From: a phage
Sequence record: OZ418233.1
Strand: one strand, 5' to 3'
Length of the DNA stretch: 40,362 nt
A program made the position numbers and the translations under genes. Positions within the stretch are counted from its first letter, which is position 1. Every line of letters begins with the position of its first letter. Under the pieces are notes generated by a model. It did no database searches. It saw nothing but the letters and a program-made list of their open reading frames with translations, and was not told the DNA's origin. Positions 1-40,322 of this stretch are shown here, in pieces.

Positions 1-78
1 TTGAATACTGCCGCCAACTATGGCGGCTTTATTTTGCATGGTACTATTACCACAACGGTAACTATTACCACGGTGGTT

Positions 79-675
79 ATGATGCCTGCTGAACCTAAAA
101 CCTATAAACGCAAATCAACGCAATTTAAGCCGCTCACAGCAATGCAGGAGGCTTATTGCCAGTCATACATCAAAACGCCTGAAAACCAGACTCAGGCAGC
201 GATTAACGCAGGATTCTCCCCAAATACAGCGGCAGTTAAAGCCAGTGTCATGATGCGCGATGAACGCATTCAAAAACGGATTGCCGAGTTGATGGAGGAG
301 CGCAACAAACGAATGCGCGTCAGTGCCGATTACGTTCTCATGCGCCTGGTGGAGATCGACCAGATGGACGTGATTGATATCCTCAATGACGATGGGAGCC
401 TTAAGCCAATCCGCGAGTGGCCGAAAATCTGGCGCACTACGCTTAGTGGCTTTGATCTGTCATCGACCATCATGAACATGAACGAGGATTCGATAGAGAC
501 AATTCTCAAAAAAATTAAATGGCCTGACAAGGTGAAGAACCTCGAACTGATTGGTAAGCACGTCGACGTCAATGCATTCAAAGAACGCCTGGATGTTAAT
601 GTGAATGTGACAATTGCTGATCGCATAGCGGCAGCCAGGAAGCGACTCAAAGAACGTCAGGATGGTAATCAGTGA
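79..675 (+). CDS. terminase small subunit
   Basis: ORF is open from window start; first in-frame ATG at 79 gives about 198 aa. Translation has the layout I associate with Terminase_2-type small subunits (QEAYCQSYIKTPENQTQAAINAGFS...). Stop overlaps the GTG start of the next gene (GTGA at 672-675). Confidence 0.7.
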   Translation: MMPAEPKTYKRKSTQFKPLTAMQEAYCQSYIKTPENQTQAAINAGFSPNTAAVKASVMMRDERIQKRIAELMEERNKRMRVSADYVLMRLVEIDQMDVIDILNDDGSLKPIREWPKIWRTTLSGFDLSSTIMNMNEDSIETILKKIKWPDKVKNLELIGKHVDVNAFKERLDVNVNVTIADRIAAARKRLKERQDGNQ

Positions 676-3211: not shown

Positions 3212-3226
3212 TTACCTGAAAGGTAA
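3212..3226. promoter_or_regulatory. palindromic operator-like motif TTACC-TGAAA-GGTAA
   Basis: Perfect TTACC-N5-GGTAA inverted repeat, about 90 bp upstream of the first virion gene; one of 12 such sites in the window. Confidence 0.55.
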
Positions 3227-14932: not shown

Positions 14933-14937
14933 ACAGG

Positions 14938-15264
14938 ATGACTAAAAATACTCGTTTTTCCCCCGAAGTCCGTCAACGGGCAGTCCGTATGGTTCTGGAA
15001 AGTCAGAGCGAATATGACTCACAATGGGCGACAATTTGTTCCATTGCTCCAAAGATTGGCTGTACGCCGGAGACTCTGCGTGTCTGGGTTCGCCAGCATG
15101 AGCGGGATACCGGGGGCGGTGATGGAGGGCTCACCACCGCTGAACGTCAGCGTCTGAAAGAGCTGGAACGTGAAAATCGTGAACTGCGCCGCAGTAACGA
15201 TATCCTTCGCCAGGCTTCCGCTTATTTTGCGAAGGCGGAGTTCGACCGCCTCTGGAAAAAATGA
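14938..15264 (+). CDS. IS3-family transposase OrfA (HTH)
   Basis: 108 aa ending in a leucine-zipper-like segment ([25 protein letters not shown]); overlaps orfB in the -1 frame as in IS3 elements. Confidence 0.85.
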
Positions 15265-16151
15265 TGCCACTGCTGGATAAGCTGCGTGAGCAGTACGGGG
15301 TCGGACCGCTATGCAGCGAACTGCATATTGCCCCGTCAACGTATTACCACTGTCAGCAACAGCGACATCATCCGGATAAACGCAGTGCCCGTGCGCAGCG
15401 CGATGACTGGCTGAAGAAAGAGATACAGCGCGTATACGATGAAAATCACAAGGTATACGGTGTGCGTAAAGTCTGGCGTCAGTTGTTACGGGAAGGTATC
15501 AGAGTGGCCAGATGCACTGTGGCACGTCTCATGGCGGTTATGGGACTTGCCGGTGTTCTCCGGGGTAAAAAGGTCCGTACGACCATCAGCCGGAAAGCCG
15601 TTGCCGCAGGCGACCGCGTAAACCGTCAGTTCGTGGCAGAACGACCTGACCAGCTGTGGGTGGCTGATTTTACTTACGTCAGCACATGGCGGGGCTTCGT
15701 CTATGTGGCGTTCATCATTGATGTGTTTGCCGGATACATCGTGGGGTGGCGGGTCTCATCGTCCATGGAAACGACATTCGTGCTGGATGCACTGGAGCAG
15801 GCGTTATGGGCCCGTCGACCGTCCGGCACGGTCCATCACAGTGATAAAGGTTCTCAGTATGTATCGCTGGCCTACACACAGCGGCTTAAGGAAGCCGGAT
15901 TACTGGCATCAACAGGAAGTACAGGCGACTCGTATGACAACGCGATGGCGGAGAGCATCAATGGTCTTTACAAAGCGGAGGTAATACACCGTAAGAGCTG
16001 GAAAAACCGTGCAGAAGTGGAACTGGCCACACTCACGTGGGTGGACTGGTATAACAATCGACGATTGCTGGAAAGGCTGGGCCATACTCCTCCGGCAGAA
16101 GCAGAAAAAGCTTATTATGCTTCCATCGGAAACGATGATCTGGCAGCCTGA
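15261..16151 (+). CDS. IS3-family transposase OrfB (DDE integrase-like catalytic domain)
   Basis: 296 aa with rve-type features (WVADFTYV..., HSDKGSQY..., [15 protein letters not shown]); overlaps orfA, consistent with programmed frameshift expression. Confidence 0.85.
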
Positions 16152-16193
16152 GTTCACAGATAAAACACTCTCCAGGAAACCCGGGGCGGTTCA

Positions 16194-20608: not shown

Positions 20609-20804
20609 GGAAGTGTTGTGTTTTTAATTATTTTGAGTGTGATAATTTCTGGTGGATTGTTATTTATTGACCGCTACAAATATTTTCTTAACCCTCAGAC
20701 TCAAGCTATTTGCTGGTTCATCTTTGTTGTGCAGGGAGTCGTTCTTGTTGCAAGCCTTATTGAGGGGAGGCCTCTTATTTTTACTGGGTAAATTAGGTGA
20801 CTAC

Positions 20805-21101
20805 ATGCAAGCTATAGGATTCATTGTTTATATCGTCGTTGGTCTTTTTCAGTTGGCAGCAATTATGGCTGGGCTTGAATCATGGTGGGGATTGCACTGG
20901 ATAATTGCAGCCCCCATTGCTTTCATCGTGAGCTATATTCCATTTGTTGGAGCGATTGTTGGTATGGTTGGCGCTGTGGATGTATGGCGGTGGGAGTGGT
21001 GGCAGGCTGGCCTTCTCTTCTTTGGTGGGATCATCTTTGCTATTGTCTGCGGTGGAATGTCATCATTTTTCGAATGGCTAGCATTCAGAAAAGGAACGTG
21101 A
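20805..21101 (+). CDS. small integral membrane protein (99 aa)
   Basis: ATG 20805 preceded by AGGTGA; about three hydrophobic helices; followed by a strong terminator. The longer ORF from 20652 lacks an RBS. Confidence 0.5.
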   Translation: MQAIGFIVYIVVGLFQLAAIMAGLESWWGLHWIIAAPIAFIVSYIPFVGAIVGMVGAVDVWRWEWWQAGLLFFGGIIFAIVCGGMSSFFEWLAFRKGT

Positions 21102-21110
21102 CATGTCACA

Positions 21111-21134
21111 GGCCGCTTTCGCGGCCTTGTTTTT
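21111..21134 (+). terminator. intrinsic terminator
   Basis: GGCCGC-TTTC-GCGGCC hairpin followed by TTGTTTTT. Confidence 0.65.
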
Positions 21135-21294
21135 AACGAATGCCACCGCCTCCCGGGCGGGAATCCGCAGAACGCCCACCGCAGCGGGAGCCGTCAGCGG
21201 CAGTATCGCTGTCGTGCTGACAACGACCGGCAAAGGCCTGAGTTGAAGCTACCAGAGACAACAAAACGAACAGTGCAGCAAATGCTTTTTTCAT
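21133..21294 (-). CDS. small secreted/lipoprotein-like peptide (53 aa)
   Basis: Internal Met of the 77-aa ORF gives MKKAFAALFVLLSLVASTQAFAG..., a signal-peptide-like N-terminus; weak RBS; uncertain gene. Confidence 0.3.
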   Translation of the reverse strand: MKKAFAALFVLLSLVASTQAFAGRCQHDSDTAADGSRCGGRSADSRPGGGGIR

Positions 21295-21387
21295 TGTGAA
21301 ATTTCCATCTATAAGCCACCTCAATGTGGCGTCAATGAGTGTAGCACTGACTTTTGTTTCGTCCACAAAAAATCCCGCAGCGCGGGC

Positions 21388-21831
21388 TTATTCTTCTTCT
21401 TCATCATTAAAAAGCGGATTGTTGTTTCCATCTGATGAAAGGAAAGGTATGTGTTCTCTTGAAAATCCAACAATGACAATTTCATTATCATTTTTTGCAT
21501 AATGAATGCATTCATTAGAATGCATTCCGCCAGGGTTGAAATTTAAGTTAATGGTATAATTCTTAAATGTGTTTGGATACCATGTTGGCCCACAATGATA
21601 ATGCCAATAATTCTCTTGCTCATAATTGTCTGAGCCGGGAATTTTATCATGGTTATCATCAACCCACGAGGGCTTGTTTTTTCCAACAAGCGCCCTTCCA
21701 TTGGCAACATCCTCTAAAAACCTTTGTATGATTTTTATTTCATCATCAGTAAGGAAAGGTCCGTCTACAGCGAAAGGGGTGTTGCTTTCCCCATGTAGAA
21801 AACTATTAGATATTCTAATGTTAAACTTCAA
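21388..21831 (-). CDS. hypothetical acidic protein (147 aa), AT-rich
   Basis: TTG start with RBS CAGGAG 7 nt upstream; visibly low GC versus flanks; strongly acidic (poly-E C-terminus); clustered His/Cys (HYHCGP, NECIHY); no family recognised. Confidence 0.5.
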   Translation of the reverse strand: MKFNIRISNSFLHGESNTPFAVDGPFLTDDEIKIIQRFLEDVANGRALVGKNKPSWVDDNHDKIPGSDNYEQENYWHYHCGPTWYPNTFKNYTINLNFNPGGMHSNECIHYAKNDNEIVIVGFSREHIPFLSSDGNNNPLFNDEEEE

Positions 21832-21851
21832 GGAAAACTCCTGATGTGCTT

Positions 21852-22019
21852 CTATTTGGAGCGAAATGCCGCCTTGAAGTCGCTAAAAGATGTTCCTGTC
21901 TGGTAAACCATATCCTTGTCGCGCTCTTTGCTTGCGCGACCAAGCATAACTTTTCCAATGACATCCCAGCATTGCTTGGCTTGTTCATTGTGCTGAGTAC
22001 GATTTTTCAACGCTGTCAT
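21852..22019 (-). CDS. hypothetical small protein (55 aa)
   Basis: Not in the supplied ORF track (below 60 aa); found by reading the minus strand: ATG with strong RBS AAGGAGG, translation MTALKNRTQHNEQAKQCWDVIGKVMLGRASKERDKDMVYQTGTSFSDFKAAFRSK, stop 21 bp upstream of the 147-aa gene. Confidence 0.35.
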   Translation of the reverse strand: MTALKNRTQHNEQAKQCWDVIGKVMLGRASKERDKDMVYQTGTSFSDFKAAFRSK

Positions 22020-22031
22020 ATCGCGCCTCCT

Positions 22032-22046
22032 TTACCTTTAAGGTAA
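22032..22046. promoter_or_regulatory. operator-like motif TTACC-TTTAA-GGTAA
   Basis: Perfect copy of the shared palindrome, 13 bp upstream of the 55-aa gene start, directly after a -10-like TAATAT on the minus strand. Confidence 0.55.
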
Positions 22047-22112
22047 TATTACGCGAATCTACATCACATCGCCAATGATTATTTTAAAGGCACATCCCTG
22101 TGCCGCCGCCCG

Positions 22113-22799
22113 TCAGAAGAACCCTGCTTTGTCGTTGATGTACTCCGCGTGGGTCTGGATATCACGCAGGCATTTGCTCACACCAACGATGTAGCAGAAC
22201 ATGGTGGTCAGCTCCGCCGCCGCTCCCGATACGTCGTGCCCGTCGTCCTGTAACTGGTTCAGCAGATTCATCAGCAGTGAGTTCTCCGTCAGGCCGAGAA
22301 CACCAGACGGCGAATGAATCAGGCTACGGTAGCCGGGCTTCAGTGGGGCGCTGTAGGTTTTGTTCTCTATCTTCATTGCCTGCATCACTGCTGACGCCGT
22401 GGCGTTGGCTACCTGGTCGGCAACCATCTTTATGCGTTCTTCTTGCGGGAGCGAGTTTTTAATGTAACTTCCGGTGCGGCGGATCTGAGGAAGAACCTCA
22501 CCTGTAACCCATTTACGAAAGCGGTATGGGATAGTGCCTGGTGTCACCGCATCGCGGCAGCGGAGGATCAGTGTGTAGAGGCCTGACTCGTTGATAATAT
22601 TGGTTTCGCCTTGACGGCCTAAGTTAAATTTAGCCCTTTCATCATCATCAAGAGATTTTATTGACATAGTGGGGTTTGTCAGTTGAAGAGCTTTAATAAC
22701 GTCTTTGGCAACAAACCAAGGATTTCCATCAATAACAATGGCTCGAATGGTTGCTTCTGATTCAAAATGAAAAACAGATGGGGTTACGTTAGCAGTCAT
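22113..22799 (-). CDS. Bro-N domain protein (antirepressor-like), 228 aa
   Basis: From internal ATG with RBS AGGTGA: MTANVTPSVFHFESEATIRAIVIDGNPWFVAKDVIKALQL... is a Bro-N-type N-terminal domain; C-terminal about 65 aa is paralogous to the small protein at 23945-24217. Confidence 0.7.
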   Translation of the reverse strand: MTANVTPSVFHFESEATIRAIVIDGNPWFVAKDVIKALQLTNPTMSIKSLDDDERAKFNLGRQGETNIINESGLYTLILRCRDAVTPGTIPYRFRKWVTGEVLPQIRRTGSYIKNSLPQEERIKMVADQVANATASAVMQAMKIENKTYSAPLKPGYRSLIHSPSGVLGLTENSLLMNLLNQLQDDGHDVSGAAAELTTMFCYIVGVSKCLRDIQTHAEYINDKAGFF

Positions 22800-22952
22800 A
22801 GTGATCACCTTTGTAGTTAGGTTAATCACCACTACCGACGCCAATCGGTTGGTGGTGAACTGTGCAGGGTTGGCGTAACCGGCTACAAAGGACCCGGCGC
22901 ACCTTTCGGTGCCCCCACACAGCCCACCATAGAATAGGTGCGCTTTACACAT

Positions 22953-22971
22953 AAAAAAACCGCTTATGCGG
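22953..22971 (-). terminator. candidate terminator/attenuator in the leader upstream of the Bro-N gene
   Basis: On the minus strand: GCCGCATAAGCGG hairpin followed by TTTTTTTA; lies between the operator/promoter region (about 23060-23080) and the Bro-N start. Confidence 0.3.
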
Positions 22972-23065
22972 CATATGTGCCTCTGTAGTAATCCGGGACG
23001 CCAATCCCGGCACTGGATTTTGCCAGTGCCCGATTACTATGGCACAAGAGGAGTGCGATGTAAAT

Positions 23066-23080
23066 TTACCGTAAAGGTAA
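23066..23080. promoter_or_regulatory. operator-like motif TTACC-GTAAA-GGTAA
   Basis: Perfect palindrome; on the minus strand it follows a -35/-10-like pair (TTGATT, 18 bp, TATCAT). Confidence 0.55.
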
Positions 23081-23158
23081 TGATAAGCGCGAAGAAACAT
23101 TAAAATCAACCGTATTTGGTTGATTGCGTTTAACGCTTGATCACCTGAAAGCAAGATA

Positions 23159-23173
23159 TTACCTTTAAGGTAA
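23159..23173. promoter_or_regulatory. operator-like motif TTACC-TTTAA-GGTAA
   Basis: Perfect palindrome 20 bp upstream of the ATG of the 242-aa gene. Confidence 0.55.
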
Positions 23174-23193
23174 TGTTATTGTGAGGAAAAGCA

Positions 23194-23922
23194 ATGGAAG
23201 TTTTCTGGATAGTTGTTGGTGTGGTTGCGGTGATTATTTACGTTATCAACCAGAACAAGACTAAGATCTCTGATCGTACGGTCGTTAATCATAACAAAAC
23301 GATAAAGACCGAAGATGGGGAGATAACGATTAATCGTACACAGGTGATAGAACACACCTCTACTCAGTTTCAAAAAACTGGAGGTAATGCGCCTAATATT
23401 TCCGCACCTCCTGCTTATGATAGTGCGGTAATCCAGACATATTATAAACAGCAGGAGTTAGCAAAAGAGAGGCAACTGATTCAGCCAAAGCCGTTTACAG
23501 CTGAGATTCCACCTGGAGTGTCAACGCGTCCGGCATATCATGGAAGATTCCCTGGTGATGACATATCGTCTCAGTCATCTAAAAAAGCACCTCAGGCAAT
23601 ATCAGAGCCAGCAAGAATACCTTCTGTATCGCCGCCAAAAGAAGAATCAGCTAACAGAGTTTCAAGTGGTAGCAAGCAGTGCTTGCGATGCAGAATAAAC
23701 CTTCCATATGAAAAATTCAGGAAATCGTCAAAAAATCCAGATGGATTGACTAAATGGTGTGCAAGGTGTCTCGATGGCCCAAAGAATACACGCCATATGA
23801 AGTGGTGCCCAATTTGTAATGTCCGCAGAAAACGAACCAGCTTTTACCCTAATAATCAAAATGCGGACGGCTTAATGGCATGGTGCAAAACGTGCTGGGA
23901 TGAGCACAAAGCGAAACGATAG
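23194..23922 (+). CDS. membrane-anchored protein with two CxxC zinc-ribbon-like pairs (242 aa)
   Basis: RBS GAGGAAAA; N-terminal hydrophobic helix followed by basic residues; Pro/Ser-rich linker; C-terminal C-x2-C repeats (CLRC, CARC, CPIC, CKTC). Confidence 0.55.
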   Translation: MEVFWIVVGVVAVIIYVINQNKTKISDRTVVNHNKTIKTEDGEITINRTQVIEHTSTQFQKTGGNAPNISAPPAYDSAVIQTYYKQQELAKERQLIQPKPFTAEIPPGVSTRPAYHGRFPGDDISSQSSKKAPQAISEPARIPSVSPPKEESANRVSSGSKQCLRCRINLPYEKFRKSSKNPDGLTKWCARCLDGPKNTRHMKWCPICNVRRKRTSFYPNNQNADGLMAWCKTCWDEHKAKR

Positions 23923-23944
23923 GCCGCTCTTGCGGCCTTTAAAT

Positions 23945-24217
23945 TTACCGGGTTTGTTTTCGTAATTGTTCGGCACAATAGTCGAGATGTGTTTGCAGAT
24001 CCCGCATAGACATCTGTGAGCTGGTGACGTAGTTAATCAGTGCAGTCAGTTCGGCAAGTGGGCCATCGACATTAAATCCATCCTTATCGAGATCCCGGAG
24101 TAATTTCATCAAGTGCGATCCCTCCACCAGTGACTTGACGCCTCCCGGCGTGTGAATCCTTTCGGTAAATCCGTCTTCCAGTGGATAGTGATACTGCTGC
24201 ATCTTAATCTTCTCCAT
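23945..24217 (-). CDS. small antirepressor-like protein (Bro C-terminal-domain paralog), 85-90 aa
   Basis: About 45% identical by eye over 60 aa to the C-terminus of the Bro-N protein (…LAELT…RD[IL]QTH…); second ATG at 24202 has RBS GGAGAAG; LexA-box-like palindrome immediately upstream. Confidence 0.55.
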   Translation of the reverse strand: MEKIKMQQYHYPLEDGFTERIHTPGGVKSLVEGSHLMKLLRDLDKDGFNVDGPLAELTALINYVTSSQMSMRDLQTHLDYCAEQLRKQTR

Positions 24218-24221
24218 GCAA

Positions 24222-24243
24222 TAACTGTATATTTATACAGTAT
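24222..24243. promoter_or_regulatory. LexA (SOS) box candidate
   Basis: TAACTGTATATTTATACAGTAT contains CTGT-N8-ACAG with AT-rich spacer, one mismatch from the E. coli consensus TACTGTATATATATACAGTA as I recall it; located just upstream of the small antirepressor-like gene. Confidence 0.65.
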
Positions 24244-24279: not shown

Positions 24280-24294
24280 TTACCTAAAAGGTAA
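24280..24294. promoter_or_regulatory. operator-like motif TTACC-TAAAA-GGTAA
   Basis: Perfect palindrome in the divergent intergenic region between the small antirepressor-like gene and the tailspike gene. Confidence 0.55.
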
Positions 24295-29133: not shown

Positions 29134-29148
29134 TTACCTTAAAGGTAT
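29134..29148. promoter_or_regulatory. operator-like motif TTACC-TTAAA-GGTAT (one mismatch)
   Basis: Copy of the shared palindrome 43 bp upstream of the integrase start. Confidence 0.45.
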
Positions 29149-32927: not shown

Positions 32928-33745
32928 ATGTACATATCCTGTTTGCGTGCCCACTCAGGGCGTTTAATGATTTCCACACCGCCCCATTCATCATTTATGC
33001 GGCATTCGTGATAGGTATTCAGATCCCGGCGGAACAGAGCGTGCCCGGCATCGACATCCGGCGCATCCAGCTCGAACACGCGTACCGGATACCGACCACA
33101 ATCAATGCTTTCGCTCACGGCAAGAAAGAAAAAACCATGCGGCTGACCAGTAACCCTCATTGCGCCTTCGCGGTACATTGCGTCCTGCACGTGGTAGCGG
33201 AATTCCTCGATGTGGCGTGCAAAACGGTCCATATCTGCAACCTTTTTCACGTCGACGATCACGTTGTGCTCGTTCAGCCATTTGTCTGGACGAATGCGGC
33301 ACAACTCACCAGTCTCTTCATCATTCCAGTACATTGATGCTTCGCAGTAACCAGGTGCTTCCAGCATCCAGCGTGCCGCCGGGTGAGCCATTGCGCTATC
33401 ACGCATCAGCTCCAGTTTCCGCCACTGCTCGGCATCAAGTACCGTAATCCCCATATCCGCTACATCACGAAGAAATGCTTCTTCGTCAGCTTTACCTTGT
33501 TTCGTCCGACGATCGAACTTCGGTGAAACAATGAAGCGTTTGTCGAATTCTCCAGGCTCCAGAAGCAGACAGTGCAATGCGGTTCCAATATCCAGTGCAG
33601 ACTTTTTCTCTTCGTCTTCTGGTGCTGCCTGGACCCATTTAAGAAGCGCCGGATTCTTGGCAACCATGTCCAGTTGCGACTTACTCACGCCGTCACCGGC
33701 GTGGTAGTCTTCGTTGCTGATGTCGAAATAAATTCCCGGTTTCAT
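32924..33745 (-). CDS. PD-(D/E)XK-type exonuclease (RecE C-terminal-domain/YqaJ-like)
   Basis: 273 aa immediately upstream of and coupled to recT; acidic/lysine catalytic-like residues (…IVDVKKV…); call rests mainly on gene context. Confidence 0.6.
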   Translation of the reverse strand: MKPGIYFDISNEDYHAGDGVSKSQLDMVAKNPALLKWVQAAPEDEEKKSALDIGTALHCLLLEPGEFDKRFIVSPKFDRRTKQGKADEEAFLRDVADMGITVLDAEQWRKLELMRDSAMAHPAARWMLEAPGYCEASMYWNDEETGELCRIRPDKWLNEHNVIVDVKKVADMDRFARHIEEFRYHVQDAMYREGAMRVTGQPHGFFFLAVSESIDCGRYPVRVFELDAPDVDAGHALFRRDLNTYHECRINDEWGGVEIIKRPEWARKQDMYI

Positions 33746-34041
33746 GCCGCGTCCCTCTGTCCATCAAGCTGATCCGCCAGATCCCAGCGGGCGATAATTG
33801 CCATTGCCTCTCGCCGATAGGCATCCATCAGTTCTTCGAACTCAGGGCTGTCTTTAGCAGCCTCCAGTACTTCCTGACGAACGCCTTTGCCTGTTACAAC
33901 GTCAAAAGTTGAGGACAGTTGATGAAGTCGGATGCTCTCAATCAGTTCAACTTGTCGGTCATATAGCTGTTCTGACAGGCGGTAGTCCTTGTCGAATGCC
34001 AGCATGATTTTTTGAAGATTTTTCTGCTGATTAACGTTCAT
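33742..34041 (-). CDS. hypothetical early protein (99 aa)
   Basis: Start at MNVNQQ with RBS GGGAGGG; stop overlaps the exonuclease start. Confidence 0.4.
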   Translation of the reverse strand: MNVNQQKNLQKIMLAFDKDYRLSEQLYDRQVELIESIRLHQLSSTFDVVTGKGVRQEVLEAAKDSPEFEELMDAYRREAMAIIARWDLADQLDGQRDAA

Positions 34042-34043
34042 TA

Positions 34044-34196
34044 TCAGCCCTCCCATATCTCGTTATCGTTGGCTACATCGCGAGCTTCTTTGCTGACGAA
34101 AGCCCACTTAATGCCTTCCTGTAAGGTGCGGAACTTCCAGCTCATGAATCCGCATGCAGTAACGCAGTACCAACCGTTGATGATTTTCCACTGCAT
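34044..34196 (-). CDS. hypothetical small early protein (50 aa)
   Basis: Not in ORF track; read manually: ATG with RBS GAGGT, MQWKIINGWYCVTACGFMSWKFRTLQEGIKWAFVSKEARDVANDNEIWEG; first gene after the leftward promoter/operators. Confidence 0.3.
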   Translation of the reverse strand: MQWKIINGWYCVTACGFMSWKFRTLQEGIKWAFVSKEARDVANDNEIWEG

Positions 34197-34215
34197 AACT
34201 TGTTACCTCGGTCTG

Positions 34216-34230
34216 TTACCGTTGAGGTAA
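34216..34230. promoter_or_regulatory. operator-like motif TTACC-GTTGA-GGTAA
   Basis: Perfect palindrome at the head of the leftward early operon. Confidence 0.55.
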
Positions 34231-34277
34231 TAATTATGCGTATCTGGTTTGATGTCAATAGATATGAGTTAAAAAAA

Positions 34278-34292
34278 TTACCCGTTAGGTAA
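34278..34292. promoter_or_regulatory. operator-like motif TTACC-CGTTA-GGTAA
   Basis: Perfect palindrome 62 bp from the previous site. Confidence 0.55.
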
Positions 34293-34302
34293 TCGAATAG
34301 GC

Positions 34303-34328
34303 AATAAAAAAGCCGCCATAAGGCGGCT
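34303..34328 (-). terminator. intrinsic terminator after the repressor gene (minus strand)
   Basis: On the minus strand AGCCGCC-TTAT-GGCGGCT hairpin followed by TTTTTTATT. Confidence 0.7.
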
Positions 34329-34349
34329 TACTTACTGAAAAATATGATT

Positions 34350-34934
34350 TTATTGTTTGTTTTTTTCGTTCTGGTTGATGACAAATTCAATGTAACTTTC
34401 GATCTTTGCCTTCTCTGTTTCAGGTAGCAATGCGTAGCGCGAGCGGTCATAGTTGATAGTCGCGGGGTCGTGCGGGTGAATCAGTAATTCATATCCGTGA
34501 CGCCCAAATGCGGATGCAACATTCTCCAGGGTGGAAATGGAAACGCTGACCTCATTGTTTAACAGGCGGCTGATTGTTACCTGGGCGACGCCGGATGCGC
34601 GGTGAAGTTTTCCCTGCGTTGAAAGGTCGCGGCTTTCGCTCATCCAGCGTTCCAGGTTGTGAGCCGCCAGTTGACCAATGTCGCTTGGTCCGACAGGCTG
34701 AAAACCTTCCTGAGAAAGCGAGCGATCGATATCAAGCCAGTTACGGGGTTTATTGGCGGCAGCTTCAATTTTTCGCGCAACCTGGTCGCCGATAACCTTC
34801 TTGCCAAGAGCCCAGCGGTTTACCAGATTTGCCTGAGTTCCAAGTTTTTCAGCCATCCGCGTCTGAACACCATTGAATTCACGGTCGATCAAGTCGTTGA
34901 GATTTTGCCTGCGGACGTCCTGGATACTTTTCAT
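34350..34934 (-). CDS. prophage repressor candidate with two HTH (XRE-like) domains, no peptidase domain
   Basis: 194 aa; two HTH-like segments (…TRMAEKLGTQANLVNRWALGK… and …SGVAQVTISRLLNNEVSVSISTLENVASAFG…); divergent from a Cro-like gene with two palindromic operators between them; no Ala-Gly/Ser...Lys S24-type self-cleavage module seen. Confidence 0.55.
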   Translation of the reverse strand: MKSIQDVRRQNLNDLIDREFNGVQTRMAEKLGTQANLVNRWALGKKVIGDQVARKIEAAANKPRNWLDIDRSLSQEGFQPVGPSDIGQLAAHNLERWMSESRDLSTQGKLHRASGVAQVTISRLLNNEVSVSISTLENVASAFGRHGYELLIHPHDPATINYDRSRYALLPETEKAKIESYIEFVINQNEKNKQ

Positions 34935-34989
34935 TTTCTGGAAAATCGCCTCATATCTGAATCAGAAGATGATTCAATTTAAAGCAATA

Positions 34990-35004
34990 TTACCCAACAG
35001 GTAA
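34990..35004. promoter_or_regulatory. operator-like motif TTACC-CAACA-GGTAA (immunity region)
   Basis: Perfect palindrome in the repressor/Cro-like divergent intergenic region. Confidence 0.6.
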
Positions 35005-35037
35005 ATGCACCTCATGGGTAACTATCCTTGATTTTTG

Positions 35038-35052
35038 TTACCTTATAGGTGA
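35038..35052. promoter_or_regulatory. operator-like motif TTACC-TTATA-GGTGA (one mismatch) overlapping a rightward promoter
   Basis: Sits between a -35-like TTGTTA (35035-35040) and a -10-like TATTAT (35058-35063, 17-bp spacing) upstream of the Cro-like gene. Confidence 0.55.
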
Positions 35053-35088
35053 ATATTTATTATCTGAAATAAATATCAGGCAATAGCT

Positions 35089-35319
35089 ATGAGCGATAAC
35101 GGACATTTCGATTTCAAAAAGCACTGGCTTGCACTTACTCCGGATGAGCGTGAAGCCTTCGCACAGGAAGCCGGAACGACGAGTCACTATATCCAGACTC
35201 ACTTAACAGGTAAGCGCAAAATGCCAGGTAAGGTATTGATGAATGGGCTTTTTAAAGCCTGTAAATCAAGACAATGGCTGCGCTCAAAAGCAGAACTGGC
35301 ATACTTCTTCTACTCATGA
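35089..35319 (+). CDS. Cro-like small HTH regulator (76 aa)
   Basis: Small basic protein with an HTH-like segment (EREAFAQEAGTTSHYIQTHLTG), first gene of the rightward operon, divergent from the repressor. Confidence 0.5.
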   Translation: MSDNGHFDFKKHWLALTPDEREAFAQEAGTTSHYIQTHLTGKRKMPGKVLMNGLFKACKSRQWLRSKAELAYFFYS

Positions 35320-35340
35320 TATCCAGCCACAACCCTCTGT

Positions 35341-35364
35341 AGACCGCCATCCGGCGGTCTTTTC
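35341..35364 (+). terminator. intrinsic terminator candidate after the Cro-like gene
   Basis: AGACCGCC-ATCC-GGCGGTCT 8-bp stem followed by TTTC; followed by a partial operator GCACC-TCAAA-GGTAA at 35375-35389. Confidence 0.5.
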
Positions 35365-35469
35365 ATATCTATTCGCACCTCAAAGGTAATAAAAAACCAA
35401 ATCTGGTTGATCTTTTTTTTGTGTCAGCACAAAATGACCGTAATCCCAATGCTAATAACAGGGCTTACC

Positions 35470-35670
35470 ATGGAAATCATTACACGTATTGATGCCGCAA
35501 AGCGCGGACTTAAACGCTACTACACCGGAAAACCATGTAAGCACGGACATGACAGTGAACGCTGGGTTTACAACGGACACTGTGTTGAGTGCACCATGGA
35601 ATCAAACCGTCGCATCAGGGCAGAGATTAAGCAGATCATGATTAATTCCTCCCCACAACATTCAAGCTGA
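35470..35670 (+). CDS. hypothetical small protein with Cys/His cluster (66 aa)
   Basis: CKHGHDSERWVYNGHCVEC suggests a metal-binding knuckle; start uncertain (weak RBS). Confidence 0.35.
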   Translation: MEIITRIDAAKRGLKRYYTGKPCKHGHDSERWVYNGHCVECTMESNRRIRAEIKQIMINSSPQHSS

Positions 35671-35685
35671 TAGCGGAGATTAATC

Positions 35686-36525
35686 ATGAGCAGACATGCA
35701 ACAGATTGGGCCTGGGAGACAGATCCAGGTAGCTCGTCATTAAAGCTCATACTGCTCTCGATGGCTGACAGAGCCGATGAATATAACCTCTGCTACCCCA
35801 GCATAGAACGCCTCGTTAAAGACACTTGCCTGAATAAAAAAACCGTGCAGGCCGGGCTTATATCGCTCATGAAAATGGGGCTTATTTCAGATACCGGAGA
35901 GAGAAAGGGAGCGACAAAAAGAGTGCGGGTTTTCTCTCTTAATATAACCAAAAACGGGAACATTAAAGGCAACCGGGAGGGGGGCAATGAACCCGAAAAC
36001 GGTAATGTTACCGAAAACGGGAATATACCCAAAAACGGGATGTTGAATGATCCCAAAAACGGGATGTTGAATGATCCCAAAAACGGGATGTTGAATGATC
36101 CCAAAAACGGGATCCAGAACCAGTCATATAACCAGTCATTTAACCAAGAGAGGGAGAGCAGGACAAAAAACGGGGATTCTGTGCCTCATGACCCTGGCGC
36201 AAACAACGCCGTGATGAATAACTTTGTTCCTCCTGGTGGGCCAGGGCAATTAGGCAAATTTGTCATGCATGAACAATGGCAACCATCAGATGACTTTCTT
36301 CGGAAAAGCTCATTGCAGGGGATCTACCTGGACAGTCTGCCAACGGCACAGGAACTTGCAGAGTTCAGAATTTACTGGATGGCTGAGGGTAAGGCATACC
36401 ATCAGGCACAGTGGGAGCAGAAGCTGGCAAGGCGGCTGCAGATTAGCAGACAGAAGCAATCAACATTACCTGATAACAACGTTCCGCACTGGAACAGCCC
36501 TGAAGCATGGGAGGATTTCTTGTGA
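35686..36525 (+). CDS. replication initiator (lambda O-like, N-terminal HTH) containing origin iterons
   Basis: RBS GGAG; N-terminal HTH-type region (…SSSLKLILLSMADRADEYNLCYPSIERLVKDT…); central coding region made of direct DNA repeats (translated NGMLNDPK x3); followed by a P-like gene. Confidence 0.7.
   Translation: MSRHATDWAWETDPGSSSLKLILLSMADRADEYNLCYPSIERLVKDTCLNKKTVQAGLISLMKMGLISDTGERKGATKRVRVFSLNITKNGNIKGNREGGNEPENGNVTENGNIPKNGMLNDPKNGMLNDPKNGMLNDPKNGIQNQSYNQSFNQERESRTKNGDSVPHDPGANNAVMNNFVPPGGPGQLGKFVMHEQWQPSDDFLRKSSLQGIYLDSLPTAQELAEFRIYWMAEGKAYHQAQWEQKLARRLQISRQKQSTLPDNNVPHWNSPEAWEDFL
36028..36113. repeat. iteron array (3.5 copies of a 24-bp direct repeat CCCAAAAACGGGATGTTGAATGAT), putative origin
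   Basis: Direct repeats at 36028, 36052, 36076 and partial at 36100; additional degenerate AAAACGG(G/T)AA units at about 35949, 35993 and 36011; in lambda the ori iterons lie inside the O gene. Confidence 0.7.
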
Positions 36526-37307
36526 ACAACGTTTTTACCGCGATACAAAACCGTGACGGAGAAGCCCTTTCTCGCATGTCAGGTTATGAGCATCAGTACG
36601 TCAACAATGACAATGTGGTTAACATGTCAGCAGAGAGGCTTGTTGATGCCCTTTTCAAACAGCTGAAACAACTGTTTCCGGCGGCAGTGGTAACCAACCT
36701 GAAGACGCCAGAGCAGGAAGTAGCTGCAAAACAGCAGTGGATTGCTGCGTTTGCCGAAGGGGGGATCCGAACCCGTGAACAGGTTTCTGCTGGTATGCGC
36801 CACGCCCGCGCCAGTGAATCTCCGTTCTGGCCGTCGCCTGGGCAATTCATCAAGTGGTGTAAAGACAGCAAGATGGTTCTTGGCGTCACCATTGACGATG
36901 TGATGGCGGAGTTTCACCGGTACAGCAAGGAAAAAAGTTTATATCCTGGTGGTCCCGAAAGATTCCCGTGGCGACATCCGGTTATGTACTGGGTCGTATG
37001 TGATACCCGCCGTGCAATGTATCAGCGCCAGCTTAGCGAGATTGAGGTTGAGAAACACGCGCGCAGGCTGCTCGATGATTGGGCGAAAAAGGTGGCTTCC
37101 GGACAGCAGATACCGGATCCGGTGATCAGCATACAGGCAAAGCCAGAACCCATGAGTACGCCTCCGGACACAGGGAGAGACGTTTACCATCCACCAGGGC
37201 GAAGTTTCGGGTGCATGCCTAACGCCGCCACCCTTGGGGGAATAACACCGGCGCAGTGGCTGATGGAGGAATACAGGCGGGGAAAGGCGGCAGGATTTAT
37301 CAAGTAA
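36522..37307 (+). CDS. replication protein P-like (helicase loader)
   Basis: Aligns by eye with lambda P as I recall it (NGITTMEQVNAGMRVARRQNRPFLPSPGQFVAWC versus GGIRTREQVSAGMRHARASESPFWPSPGQFIKWC here); GTG start overlapping the O stop with RBS GGGAGGA. Confidence 0.75.
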   Translation: MNNVFTAIQNRDGEALSRMSGYEHQYVNNDNVVNMSAERLVDALFKQLKQLFPAAVVTNLKTPEQEVAAKQQWIAAFAEGGIRTREQVSAGMRHARASESPFWPSPGQFIKWCKDSKMVLGVTIDDVMAEFHRYSKEKSLYPGGPERFPWRHPVMYWVVCDTRRAMYQRQLSEIEVEKHARRLLDDWAKKVASGQQIPDPVISIQAKPEPMSTPPDTGRDVYHPPGRSFGCMPNAATLGGITPAQWLMEEYRRGKAAGFIK

Positions 37308-37344: not shown

Positions 37345-37359
37345 TTACCTATTGGGTAA
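37345..37359. promoter_or_regulatory. operator-like motif TTACC-TATTG-GGTAA
   Basis: Perfect palindrome downstream of the P-like gene. Confidence 0.55.
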
Positions 37360-37406
37360 CAAAATATTCTAAATTCTATTGATTTCGTGTCTTATGTGGT
37401 TTTTAA

Positions 37407-37421
37407 TTACCTAAGAGGTAA
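37407..37421. promoter_or_regulatory. operator-like motif TTACC-TAAGA-GGTAA overlapping an RBS
   Basis: Perfect palindrome ending 3 nt before ATG 37425; its right half doubles as the SD (GAGGT). Confidence 0.55.
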
Positions 37422-39710: not shown

Positions 39711-39991
39711 TGGCTAACCTACAGCTTGCTGTCAAAGGTGAATACTTCGATGCCATGATTCGCGGAGAGAAAACGGAGGAGTATCGCCTGTGTAATGACT
39801 ATTGGAATAAGCGAATTATGTTCCGGGAATATGACCGCCTGATTATCACAAAGGGATATCCGAAGCGCGACGATTCCAGTCGCAGAATAGACGTCCCGTA
39901 TGACGGATATGAAATCAAGACAATCACACATCCGCACTTCGGCGATAAACCGGTAAAGGTGTTCGCGATAAAGGTGAATATTGATGGCTAA
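39710..39991 (+). CDS. ASCH/PUA-like small protein (93 aa)
   Basis: Start overlaps upstream stop (TAATG); MANLQLAVKGEYFDAMIRGEKTEEYR fits the N-terminal pattern of ASCH-type domains; unverified. Confidence 0.4.
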   Translation: MANLQLAVKGEYFDAMIRGEKTEEYRLCNDYWNKRIMFREYDRLIITKGYPKRDDSSRRIDVPYDGYEIKTITHPHFGDKPVKVFAIKVNIDG

Positions 39992-40322
39992 ATCAGCAGC
40001 AGAGCGCAAAGCCGCTCAGAGAGCCAGACAAGCTGCATCTGGTGTGCGTAAGCTGGAAATTGTGCTTGATGCTCAGGAAATTGAAATGCTGGAGCGTAAC
40101 TGTGCCACGCGTCGCCCCGGGCGTGCGTCTTACGAATTTGGTGAGTATATAGCGTTATTGATCCGCCAGGATGATGCACGCGTGCACGGGCGTATAAAAT
40201 CGATCAGCAGAAAACGTTGCGGTAAGTGCGGCGAGAGAGTTCCAGTTAATTCATGCCCGTGTAATGGTGACTCGCAATGCTGGGTGACTAAAGGCTGGCA
40301 TGAAACGAAATTAATAGTGTGA
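39984..40322 (+). CDS. hypothetical basic protein with C-terminal zinc-ribbon-like CxxC pairs (112 aa)
   Basis: ATG 39984; basic N-terminus with a ribbon-helix-helix-like segment; C-terminal CGKCG…CPC cysteine cluster. Confidence 0.35.
   Translation: MAKSAAERKAAQRARQAASGVRKLEIVLDAQEIEMLERNCATRRPGRASYEFGEYIALLIRQDDARVHGRIKSISRKRCGKCGERVPVNSCPCNGDSQCWVTKGWHETKLIV

What the first reader, a model, noticed from the sequence alone, without database searches (positions are those of the whole stretch)
34350..35089. Immunity region: two-HTH repressor without peptidase domain, divergent promoters, two operators and an extra inverted repeat
The 194-aa repressor candidate has two HTH-like segments and no self-cleavage module. 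The 154-bp intergenic region to the Cro-like gene contains two palindromic operator sites 48 bp apart, the rightward one embedded between -35-like TTGTTA and -10-like TATTAT. Immediately downstream is a separate 8-bp inverted repeat ATATTTAT-N8-ATAAATAT (35053-35076), which could be a second regulator's site, perhaps for the Cro-like protein.
Basis: partly seen in the sequence, partly recalled or inferred. Interest (0 to 1): 0.55.

Follow-up and report, generated by a model that had tools for sequence, protein, structure and literature searches.

The report
Known antirepressor-controlled phage repressor switch
This is the lysogeny switch of a phiV10/epsilon15-type E. coli prophage, whose repressor has no self-cleavage domain because a separate LexA-controlled antirepressor switches it off; this system has already been described, and the "extra" inverted repeat is probably incidental.

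Summary
The window is a phiV10-like Uetakevirus genome, about 98% identical to phiV10. The 194-aa protein (34350-34934, minus strand) is 100% identical to the phiV10 and vB_EcoP_ZX5 repressor, which was shown to repress by overexpression. It aligns over its full length to the solved Salmonella phage SPC32H Rep (PDB 5D50_A, E 4e-42).

Rep has no S24 peptidase domain. The window also encodes the cognate antirepressor Ant (23945-24217, E 4.6e-46 to 5D50_E) behind a perfect LexA box.

The operator is (A)TTACC-N5-GGTAA(T).
- OR holds three copies, not two: 34990, 35007 and 35038.
- OL holds two copies: 34216 and 34278.
- The motif occurs 14 times in the window at one mismatch or fewer, against 0.7 expected.
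- Copies sit at matching positions in six related phages, and the epsilon15 RefSeq record already labels such sites as repressor-binding.

The inverted repeat at 35053-35076 is real (9-bp arms). It decays without compensating changes in close relatives. It is absent from epsilon15-type phages even though their Cro-like protein keeps an identical helix-turn-helix.

Verdict: a correct reading of an already known system, of low novelty.

The parts
34350..34934 (-). Rep, the prophage master repressor (194 aa). Domains are an N-terminal HTH DNA-binding domain (~1-75), a middle HTH_3-like dimerisation domain (~90-150) and a C-terminal tetramerisation/Ant-binding domain (~155-190).
   Evidence: Full-length match to SPC32H Rep 5D50_A, E 4e-42, residues 1-190. 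Pfam finds HTH_3 in two stretches and no S24. 100% identical to the phiV10/ZX5 repressor, which was tested by overexpression (PMC9782041). Domain names come from PMC9986798.
34310..34329 (-). Intrinsic terminator after rep
   Evidence: 8-bp stem with 6 GC pairs plus a T-run. Conserved in close relatives.
34216..34230 (.). OL1 operator TTACCGTTGAGGTAA, covering about -7 to +8 of PL
34278..34292 (.). OL2 operator TTACCCGTTAGGTAA, 62 bp from OL1 and upstream of the PL -35
   Evidence: The 62-63 bp spacing recurs in phiV10, Tyrion, eps15, SPC32H and BUCT711.
34230..34258 (-). PL, the early-left promoter: TTGACA-17-AATTAT
   Evidence: 10 of 12 in the scan. The -35 TTGACA is invariant in 8 aligned relatives.
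34990..35004 (.). OR1 operator TTACCCAACAGGTAA. It overlaps the candidate leftward -10 TAATAT (34987-34992, minus strand).
   Evidence: The leftward -10 is inferred from invariant columns only.
35007..35021 (.). OR2 operator GCACCTCATGGGTAA (2 mismatches), 17 bp from OR1.
   Evidence: Its position is conserved in all 12 aligned relatives, and it is a perfect TTACC site in eps15 types.
35038..35052 (.). OR3 operator TTACCTTATAGGTGA, inside the PR spacer and overlapping the -10
35028..35056 (+). PR as supported by conservation: -35 TTGATT (35028-33), 17 bp, -10 GAATAT (35051-56).
   Evidence: TTGATT and -10 positions A2, A5 and T6 are invariant in 12 sequences. The alternative scores 9 of 12 but is not conserved.
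35053..35076 (.). Inverted repeat ATATTTATT-N6-AATAAATAT over the PR -10/+1 region. Probably incidental.
35089..35319 (+). gp39-like small HTH protein, Cro-like by position (76 aa)
   Evidence: phrog_35 'transcriptional repressor', E 8.7e-13. AF2 five-helix model, pLDDT 82. Best folds are YdaS, 434 and C-protein HTH domains at TM 0.56-0.62, with non-significant E-values. No Pfam hit.
35341..35360 (+). Intrinsic terminator directly after the Cro-like gene
35375..35389 (.). Degenerate operator GCACCTCAAAGGTAA after that terminator
   Evidence: A 1-mismatch site sits at the matching position in phiV10 and Tyrion.
23945..24217 (-). Ant, the antirepressor (probable start 24202)
   Evidence: E 4.6e-46 to SPC32H Ant 5D50_E. 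Maps to phiV10 p24.
24225..24240 (.). LexA box CTGTATATTTATACAG just upstream of ant
24280..24294 (.). Rep operator between ant and the tail-fibre gene
   Evidence: Matching position in eps15 (where the record annotates it as repressor-binding), SPC32H and Tyrion.
22113..22952 (-). Bro-N::Ant fusion protein, a second putative antirepressor
   Evidence: Bro-N E 7.8e-20. C-terminal residues 198-274 match Ant at E 2.7e-13.
23066..23080 (.). Rep operator abutting the -10 of the Bro-N::Ant promoter (TTGATT-18-TATCAT, 23109..23080)
23159..23173 (.). Rep operator upstream of ORF 23194-23922
22032..22046 (.). Rep operator upstream of leftward accessory ORFs
47..79 (.). Pair of Rep operators (47-61 and 65-79, 18 bp apart) between the early-right terminator and terS
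   Evidence: The same pair occurs in phiV10, eps15 and Tyrion.
3212..3226 (.). Rep operator upstream of the head-gene operon
   Evidence: The matching eps15 site is annotated as repressor-binding.
29134..29148 (.). Rep operator variant (GGTAT) upstream of int
   Evidence: The same GGTAT variant occurs in phiV10, eps15, Tyrion and SPC32H.
37345..37421 (.). Operator pair 37345-37359 and 37407-37421, 62 bp apart, bracketing promoter TTGATT (37379-84)-17-TTTAAT (37402-07) of the DUF1064 gene
   Evidence: The 62-bp pair recurs in five relatives.

Best explanation
The region is the lysis-lysogeny switch of a phiV10/epsilon15-type podovirus (Uetakevirus), of the SPC32H Rep-Ant kind.

Repression. Rep binds 15-17-bp palindromes (A)TTACC-N5-GGTAA(T) through its N-terminal HTH. 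By homology it does so as a tetramer.
- At OR there are three sites. OR3 sits in the PR spacer and -10 and blocks transcription of the Cro-like gene and the replication genes. OR1 overlaps the likely -10 of the rep promoter and would give autoregulation. OR2 lies between them.
- At OL two sites 62 bp apart bracket the strong PL promoter.
- Further sites sit at almost every other transcription unit: terS/late genes, head genes, ant/tail fibre, int, the Bro-N::Ant fusion and the post-replication genes. Rep therefore silences the prophage globally.

Induction. Rep has no S24 domain and is not cleaved. DNA damage removes LexA from the box in front of ant. Ant then binds the Rep C-terminal domain and takes the tetramer off the DNA.

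The second 'HTH'. It is the middle dimerisation domain, not a DNA reader.

The inverted repeat. The 9-bp repeat over the PR -10/+1 region is a lineage-specific, probably incidental feature of AT-rich promoter DNA.

Shown here: the homologies, the motif statistics, the matching positions across genomes, the spacing, the conserved promoter elements, and the presence of Ant and the LexA box.

Inferred: actual binding, the oligomeric state, looping, autoregulation and the transcription start sites.
For: Rep, Ant and the induction route:
- Rep aligns to 5D50_A over residues 1-190 (E 4e-42) and has no S24 domain.
- The identical protein represses lysis genes and blocks lytic growth when overexpressed (PMC9782041).
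- Ant matches 5D50_E at E 4.6e-46, and a perfect LexA box lies 24225-24240.
- Secondary literature describes SPC32H Rep as a tetramer that binds palindromic sites and is disassembled by tetrameric Ant. It gives the domain order as DBD, then MDD, then CAD.

The operator motif:
- The motif occurs 14 times in the window against 0.69 expected.
- It occurs 13-18 times in each of phiV10, eps15, Tyrion, BUCT711 and SPC32H, against fewer than 1 expected, at matching positions.
- The eps15 RefSeq record annotates seven such sites as protein_bind 'repressor'.
- The Rep recognition helix NLVNRW is invariant across Reps that are only 42-78% identical, which fits the shared half-site.
- An unrelated Pseudomonas phage cI has a homologous N-terminal domain (39% identity) joined to an S24 C-terminal domain. 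Four TTACC-N4-GGTAA sites flank its gene, against 0.04 expected.

Architecture:
- The three-site OR layout and the invariant TTGATT and A2/A5/T6 positions hold in 12 relatives.
- The PL -35 TTGACA is invariant.
- The 62-bp operator pairs are conserved at two loci.
Against: - No binding, footprint or transcript-mapping data were available to me for this phage.
- The three primary papers on epsilon15 and SPC32H are not in the held library. I therefore could not confirm the experimentally defined SPC32H operator sequence. The epsilon15 site annotation may be purely predictive.
- The Cro-like protein is even more conserved than Rep. It could bind the same sites, so conservation alone does not assign the motif to Rep.
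- The window Rep is only 42% identical to SPC32H Rep, so tetramer geometry and the Ant interface are extrapolated.
- No convincing -35 exists for a leftward rep promoter in the intergenic region.
Confidence: 0.85

Rival explanations
1. The inverted repeat ATATTTATT-N6-AATAAATAT (35053-35076) is a genuine operator for a second regulator, either the Cro-like gp39 homologue or a host factor. From its position over the -10/+1 region it would shut PR independently of Rep.
For: - The arms are a perfect 9 bp, and only 6% of shuffles of the intergenic region give arms of 8 bp or more.
- The repeat is unique in the genome apart from one 3-mismatch hit inside a coding region.
- It is identical in phiV10 and in 80 prophage copies.
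- Its position over the promoter core is ideal for repression.
Against: - All 81 identical copies are near-clonal, so they carry little information.
- In the four informative relatives the arms change without compensation. Tyrion loses both outer pairs. Superficieibacter has A to G in the left arm only. BUCT554 and Erwinia dacicola have two unpaired changes.
- The repeat is absent from eps15, SPC32H, Citrobacter, Klebsiella and Scandinavium relatives, although the gp39 HTH is invariant.
- No second copy lies at PL or any other promoter.
- The region is 27% GC, where A/T palindromes arise easily.
Confidence: 0.08
2. The dispersed TTACC-N5-GGTAA palindromes are bound mainly by a protein other than Rep. 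Candidates are the highly conserved Cro-like gp39 and the N15 gp46-like regulator at 39984-40322. Rep would then use some other site.
For: - The motif is identical across phages whose Reps are only 42% identical, whereas gp39 is 59-86% identical with an invariant HTH.
- Many sites precede late or lytic operons.
Against: - The Rep recognition helix NLVNRW is also invariant.
- The sites flank rep on both sides in the classic OL/OR arrangement and overlap promoter cores in repressor-type positions.
- The PseuP_224 cI, which has a Rep-like N-terminal domain, is flanked by the same half-sites.
- The eps15 record assigns the sites to the repressor.
- SPC32H Rep is reported to bind palindromic sites as a tetramer.
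- Cro sharing the same operators, as in lambda, would be compatible with the main explanation.
Confidence: 0.06
3. The protein is a lambda-CI/LexA-type repressor inactivated by RecA-stimulated self-cleavage, with a divergent peptidase module that Pfam does not recognise.
For: None beyond its position in the genome.
Against: - No S24 hit appears even at E up to 1.
- The whole C-terminal part aligns to the solved non-peptidase MDD and CAD domains of SPC32H Rep.
- A cognate antirepressor with a LexA box is present.
Confidence: 0.01

Closest known systems
Salmonella phage SPC32H Rep-Ant lytic switch (PDB 5D4Z, 5D50; Kim & Ryu 2013 J Virol; Kim et al. 2016 PNAS)
   Same: - Same genus (Uetakevirus) and the same gene order.
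- Rep is homologous over its full length (E 4e-42).
- Ant is about 88% identical by my count from the alignment.
- A LexA box precedes ant.
- There is no S24 domain.
- The TTACC-N5-GGTAA sites lie at the same genome positions.
   Different: - Rep is only about 42% identical, with most divergence in the linker and the MDD/CAD region.
- OR2 is degenerate (GCACC) here.
- OL has two sites here against three in SPC32H.
- This phage also carries a Bro-N::Ant fusion under a Rep operator.
- I could not read the primary papers, so the operator comparison rests on the genome sequences.
Salmonella phage epsilon15 gp38 major repressor and its annotated 'repressor' binding sites (NC_004775.2; Kropinski et al. 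2007)
   Same: - Homologous repressor.
- Same half-site and the same dispersed distribution of sites: terS, gp3, tail fibre, OL and post-replication.
   Different: - The eps15 record does not annotate the three OR sites, which are nevertheless present.
- eps15 has no inverted repeat downstream of OR3.
Escherichia phages phiV10 and vB_EcoP_ZX5 (repressor ORF40 / ORF21)
   Same: - The repressor protein is identical.
- The immunity-region DNA is about 98% identical.
- ZX5 ORF21 overexpression blocks lytic growth, and a Bro-N antirepressor promotes it (PMC9782041).
   Different: - No operators or promoters were mapped in those studies.
- This window carries extra accessory ORFs near ant and an IS element in a virion gene.
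Lambda CI/Cro with tripartite OR
   Same: - Divergent repressor and cro genes.
- Three operators between them.
- A PL/OL on the other side of the repressor gene.
- A terminator after cro.
   Different: - No S24 self-cleavage.
- A different fold for oligomerisation.
- Different operator spacing (17 and 31 bp).
- Operators also sit at late, lysis, int and accessory promoters.
Phage P1 C1 repressor, and antirepressor-controlled repressors (186 CI-Tum, Gifsy phages)
   Same: - Many operators dispersed over the genome, as with P1 C1 (my own knowledge).
- SOS induction through a LexA-controlled antirepressor rather than cleavage, as with 186 Tum and the Gifsy phages (my own knowledge; cited in PMC9782041 and PMC7380047).
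   Different: - The proteins are unrelated.
- P1 operators are asymmetric, whereas these are palindromes.
Pseudomonas phage PseuP_224 cI (OP795451.1)
   Same: - The N-terminal HTH is homologous (39% identity over 71 aa).
- The TTACC/GGTAA half-sites flank the repressor gene on both sides.
   Different: - It carries an S24 peptidase-type C-terminus; I judged this by eye from the translation and ran no domain search on it.
- The half-site spacer is N4, not N5.

Membership tests
SPC32H/epsilon15-type Rep (antirepressor-inactivated tetrameric phage repressor) | Full-length sequence homology to Rep, covering the DBD, the middle dimerisation domain and the C-terminal Ant-binding/tetramerisation domain | tested here: met
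   phmmer to 5D50_A gives E 4e-42 over query residues 1-190 of 194. The match to 5D4Z_A (Rep 92-198) gives E 4.1e-20.
SPC32H/epsilon15-type Rep (antirepressor-inactivated tetrameric phage repressor) | No S24/LexA-type autocleavage domain | tested here: met
   Pfam scan at E up to 1 returns only HTH families.
SPC32H/epsilon15-type Rep (antirepressor-inactivated tetrameric phage repressor) | Cognate small antirepressor Ant encoded in the same genome | tested here: met
   ORF 23945-24217 (minus strand) matches 5D50_E at E 4.6e-46.
SPC32H/epsilon15-type Rep (antirepressor-inactivated tetrameric phage repressor) | ant under LexA control (SOS box at its promoter) | tested here: met
   CTGTATATTTATACAG lies at 24225-24240, 8-23 nt upstream of the ant start. 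The sequence is present; regulation itself was not tested.
SPC32H/epsilon15-type Rep (antirepressor-inactivated tetrameric phage repressor) | Palindromic operators at OL and OR, shared with the type phages | tested here: met
   TTACC-N5-GGTAA lies at matching OL and OR positions in the window, SPC32H and eps15.
SPC32H/epsilon15-type Rep (antirepressor-inactivated tetrameric phage repressor) | Tetramer with 'trans' pairing of DNA-binding domains, disassembled by tetrameric Ant | not testable with these tools
   Known for SPC32H from secondary sources. It needs SEC-MALS or a structure for this protein.
Lambda CI / LexA-like self-cleaving repressors (S24 family) | C-terminal S24 peptidase domain with a Ser-Lys dyad and an Ala-Gly cleavage site | tested here: not met
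   There is no S24 hit, and the C-terminal half aligns to a non-peptidase solved structure.
Cro-type small HTH repressor (for the 76-aa gene 35089-35319) | Small HTH protein, first gene of PR, divergent from the repressor gene | tested here: met
   The position is clear. The AF2 model is a five-helix bundle with pLDDT 82. The top structural neighbours are YdaS, 434 and C-protein HTH domains at TM 0.56-0.62.
Cro-type small HTH repressor (for the 76-aa gene 35089-35319) | Significant sequence or fold homology to a characterised Cro, and binding to the switch operators | tested here: inconclusive
   There is no Pfam or NCBIfam hit. The PDB profile search gives only E 0.21. All Foldseek E-values are 1.2 or higher. 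The protein matches phrog_35 'transcriptional repressor' at E 8.7e-13. Binding was not tested.

The most novel reading that the evidence does not exclude
Rep is a genome-wide repressor that works through short DNA loops. A single tetramer would bridge operator pairs held at a strictly conserved 62-bp spacing, about six helical turns. These pairs bracket PL and the post-replication promoter. At side-by-side pairs the spacing is 17-18 bp. The Rep-repressed Bro-N::Ant fusion would add a positive-feedback latch. LexA-controlled Ant would lift repression first, and Rep-controlled Ant-fusion synthesis would then make induction irreversible. As far as I could check, neither the looping geometry nor the latch has been described for this family.
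Probability: 0.35. Interest if true: 0.4.

Novelty: already known. Interest (0 to 1): 0.15.

Why it matters
It matters little as a discovery. The repressor protein is identical to one already annotated in phiV10 in 2009 and functionally tested in vB_EcoP_ZX5 in 2022. Its family has crystal structures and a worked-out antirepressor mechanism from SPC32H.

The useful output is a consistent, comparatively supported operator and promoter map for the phiV10 immunity type:
- three sites at OR;
- two sites at OL;
- about ten further sites elsewhere in the genome;
- PR and PL core elements.

This prophage type is very common in E. coli, with at least 80 identical copies in IMG/VR, and phiV10 is used as a reporter phage. 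An explicit operator map and the Ant/LexA wiring would help in engineering or curing it.

Tried and rejected
- Primary papers. I tried to read Kropinski 2007 (PMC2698709), Kim & Ryu 2013 (PMC3807360) and Kim 2016 (PMC4983836). None is held, so the mechanism comes from papers that cite them and from memory.
- Viral-contig scan with Rep. It returned 80 loci that all carry the identical protein, and the inverted repeat is identical in every one of them. They say nothing about conservation. The genome-contig scan with the Rep alignment gave the useful intermediates.
- Python access to most fetched loci failed because the files were not synced. I used the DNA search on each locus instead.
- Inverted repeat as an RNA hairpin. 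Rejected, because with either candidate -10 the transcript starts inside the loop or the right arm.
- Inverted repeat as a gp39 site. Rejected on comparative grounds.
- TTGTTA/TATTAT as the PR hexamers. Downgraded in favour of the invariant TTGATT/GAATAT.
- Leftward sigma-70 promoter for rep in the intergenic region. The scan found none. Only a conserved -10-like TAATAT with no -35 could be proposed. A leftward promoter-like site at 35343..35316 might act like lambda PRE, but I did not pursue it.
The single-sequence model gave an HTH-like fold, but the fold matches were not significant.
Full report
**What the window is.** Megablast of 33700-36600 and of 1-25000 shows a phiV10-like podovirus (genus Uetakevirus, the epsilon15 group) at about 97-99% identity. 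Mapping the phiV10 genes onto the window gives collinear gene order from terS (position 1) to the last early-right gene (39984-40322).

**Checking the observation.**
- The repressor ORF is 34350-34934 (minus strand, 194 aa), and a 76-aa ORF lies at 35089-35319.
- The intergenic region between them is 154 bp.
- The palindromes are TTACCCAACAGGTAA at 34990 and TTACCTTATAGGTGA at 35038, 48 bp apart.
- TTGTTA-17-TATTAT lies at 35035-35063.
- The inverted repeat at 35053-35076 extends to 9-bp arms, ATATTTATT-N6-AATAAATAT.
- Pfam finds HTH_3 in two stretches and no S24 peptidase.

**Identity of the repressor.**
- The protein is 100% identical to the repressor of phiV10, vB_EcoP_ZX5 and a dozen other E. 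coli phages. It is 75-78% identical to the Enterobacter phage homologues and 42-45% identical to those of Klebsiella phages, epsilon15 and SPC32H.
- Against solved structures it aligns from residue 1 to 190 with the SPC32H repressor (5D50_A, E 4e-42) and with the Rep 92-198 fragment (5D4Z, E 4e-20).
- Papers that discuss those structures describe Rep as an N-terminal DNA-binding domain, a middle dimerisation domain (MDD) and a C-terminal tetramerisation/Ant-binding domain (CAD) (PMC9986798).
- They also describe a tetramer that binds palindromic sites and is dismantled by a tetrameric antirepressor (PMC9638917).
- The stronger Pfam HTH_3 hit (106-147) therefore falls in the MDD.
- For the identical ZX5 protein, overexpression abolished free phage and cut lysis-gene transcripts by more than 99.9%. 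A Bro-N 'anti-repressor' favoured lytic growth. No operators were mapped (PMC9782041).

**Why there is no peptidase domain.**
- The window encodes the cognate antirepressor. ORF 23945-24217 (minus strand) matches SPC32H Ant (5D50_E) at E 4.6e-46.
- A perfect LexA box, CTGTATATTTATACAG, lies at 24225-24240 directly upstream.
- From my own knowledge of Kim & Ryu 2013, ant in SPC32H is LexA-controlled and Rep is not cleaved. The wiring seen here matches that.
- A second protein (22113-22952, minus strand) has a Bro-N domain fused to an Ant-like C-terminus (E 2.7e-13).

**The operators.**
- TTACC-N5-GGTAA at one mismatch or fewer occurs 14 times in the window, against 0.69 expected and never more than 3 in shuffles.
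- The same holds in phiV10 (14), epsilon15 (15), Tyrion (15), BUCT711 (13) and SPC32H (18), each with fewer than 1 expected.
- The sites sit at matching positions across these genomes:
  - a pair 18 bp apart before terS;
  - one before the head operon;
  - one between ant and the tail-fibre gene;
  - a GGTAT variant before int;
  - two or three at OL;
  - three at OR;
  - a pair 62 bp apart after the replication genes.
- The epsilon15 RefSeq record already labels seven of these as protein_bind 'repressor'.
- The Rep recognition helix NLVNRW is invariant across all six Reps aligned, which fits a shared half-site.
- Independent support comes from Pseudomonas phage PseuP_224. Its cI has a Rep-like N-terminal domain (39% identity) and what looks by eye like an S24-type C-terminus. 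Its gene is flanked by four TTACC-N4-GGTAA sites, against 0.04 expected.

**Architecture of the switch.**
- Twelve OR regions were aligned. All have three operators.
- Outside the operators, the invariant columns spell TTGATT (35028-35033) and positions 2, 5 and 6 of a hexamer 17 bp downstream (GAATAT, 35051-35056).
Either way, OR3 lies inside the core promoter.
- Leftward, the only conserved promoter-like element is TAATAT (34987-34992, minus strand). It overlaps OR1 and has no -35. A rep promoter there, autoregulated through OR1, is an inference.
- On the other side of rep, PL (TTGACA-17-AATTAT, 34258..34230) scores 10 of 12, and its -35 is invariant in eight relatives.
- OL1 (34216-34230) begins at the last base of the PL -10. 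OL2 (34278-34292) lies 62 bp upstream.
- The same geometry recurs at the DUF1064 promoter, with TTGATT-17-TTTAAT and sites at 37345 and 37407. The Bro-N::Ant promoter shares only the operator-abuts--10 arrangement, at site 23066.
- The 62-63-bp spacing is conserved in every genome examined. It suggests, but does not prove, that one tetramer bridges the two sites.

**The extra inverted repeat.**
- It is real, but the statistics are weak. In shuffles of this 32%-GC region, 6% contain a repeat with arms of 8 bp or more.
- It is unique in the genome. It is identical in 81 near-clonal copies, which carry no information about conservation.
- The four informative relatives all break the symmetry without compensation:
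  - Tyrion changes both outer positions;
  - Superficieibacter changes one left-arm base;
  - BUCT554 and Erwinia dacicola change one base in each arm at non-pairing positions.
- The epsilon15, SPC32H, Citrobacter, Klebsiella and Scandinavium relatives have no such repeat.
- Yet the Cro-like protein is 59-86% identical across the genus, with an invariant AGTTSHYIQTHLTG helix-turn-helix.
- With either candidate -10, transcription would start inside the repeat, so it cannot form an RNA hairpin.
- I rate it as incidental, with about 8% for a lineage-specific function.

**The Cro-like gene.**
- It matches phrog_35 ('transcriptional repressor', E 8.7e-13) but no Pfam or NCBIfam family.
- A single-sequence AlphaFold model (pLDDT 82) is a five-helix bundle. 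Its nearest solved folds are YdaS, 434-repressor and C-protein HTH domains (TM 0.56-0.62), with non-significant E-values.
- 'Cro-like' is reasonable by position and fold class, but it is unproven.

**Comparison and verdict.**
- The locus passes every membership feature of the SPC32H/epsilon15 Rep-Ant family that can be tested in silico. It fails the defining feature of lambda-CI/LexA-type repressors.
- It is incomplete on operator number, probably offset on the promoter hexamers, and unsupported on the inverted repeat.
- The exact protein is already annotated and functionally tested, and its family is structurally characterised. Novelty is nil to low.
- The residual interest lies in the conserved 62-bp operator pairs and the Rep-controlled Bro-N::Ant fusion.

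Noticed in passing
window 14884-16193: An IS3-family insertion sequence interrupts the phiV10 p18-like virion/ejection protein gene. It has 25-bp terminal inverted repeats (TGAACCGCCCCGGGAATCCTGGAGA) and an rve transposase ORF at 15261-16151. The prophage is probably defective for making infectious particles.
   Followed up: partly
window 22113-22952 (-), with operator 23066-23080: This is a Bro-N domain fused to an Ant-like C-terminus (E 2.7e-13 to SPC32H Ant). Its promoter, TTGATT-18-TATCAT, abuts a Rep operator and has no LexA box. It may act as a Rep-controlled second antirepressor giving positive feedback during induction.
   Followed up: partly
window 34216/34278 and 37345/37407; same loci in L001, L002, L003, L084, L085: Operator pairs that bracket a promoter keep a centre-to-centre spacing of 62 bp (63 in one case) in every Uetakevirus examined. 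In each case the proximal operator begins at the last base of the -10. This suggests looping by a single Rep tetramer.
   Followed up: partly
window 36028-36113: There are 3.6 perfect tandem copies of a 24-bp unit inside the DnaT-like replication initiator gene. They encode the repeated PKNGMLND motif and probably serve as origin iterons.
   Followed up: no
window 35341-35389: A strong intrinsic terminator lies directly after the Cro-like gene. It is followed by a degenerate operator (GCACCTCAAAGGTAA) ahead of the replication genes. How PR transcription reaches the replication genes is unclear; it could be by antitermination or from a second promoter.
   Followed up: no
window 29134-29148; L001 26870, L002 26882, L003 28568, L084 26960: The operator upstream of int carries the same single mismatch (GGTAT) in all five genomes. 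This suggests a deliberately weaker site near attP.
   Followed up: no
window 1-90; L001 41-120: The start annotated for phiV10 terS (its position 41, which is window position 1) places a terminator and two Rep operators inside the coding sequence. The epsilon15-equivalent start is the ATG at window 84, so the phiV10 annotation is probably too long.
   Followed up: partly
L087 (Pseudomonas phage PseuP_224) 2422-3336: Its cI repressor combines a Rep-like N-terminal HTH with what looks by eye like an S24-type C-terminus. Four TTACC-N4-GGTAA sites flank the gene. The same DNA-binding module is therefore paired with a self-cleavage module here and with an antirepressor-docking module in the Uetakeviruses.
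   Followed up: partly
window 20609-22112 and 22953-23944: These are accessory ORFs absent from phiV10: a 147-aa ORF at 21388-21831 (minus strand) with no family, and a 242-aa ORF at 23194-23922 with a weak Stc1-like Cys-rich hit. Each is preceded by a perfect Rep operator (22032 and 23159). They are predicted to be silent in the lysogen and expressed on induction.
   Followed up: no
alignments A2: Ant is about 88% identical between this phage and SPC32H (my count from the alignment), whereas their Reps are only about 42% identical. The operator half-site and the Rep recognition helix are invariant across the genus. It is therefore unclear what determines immunity specificity among these phages.
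   Followed up: no
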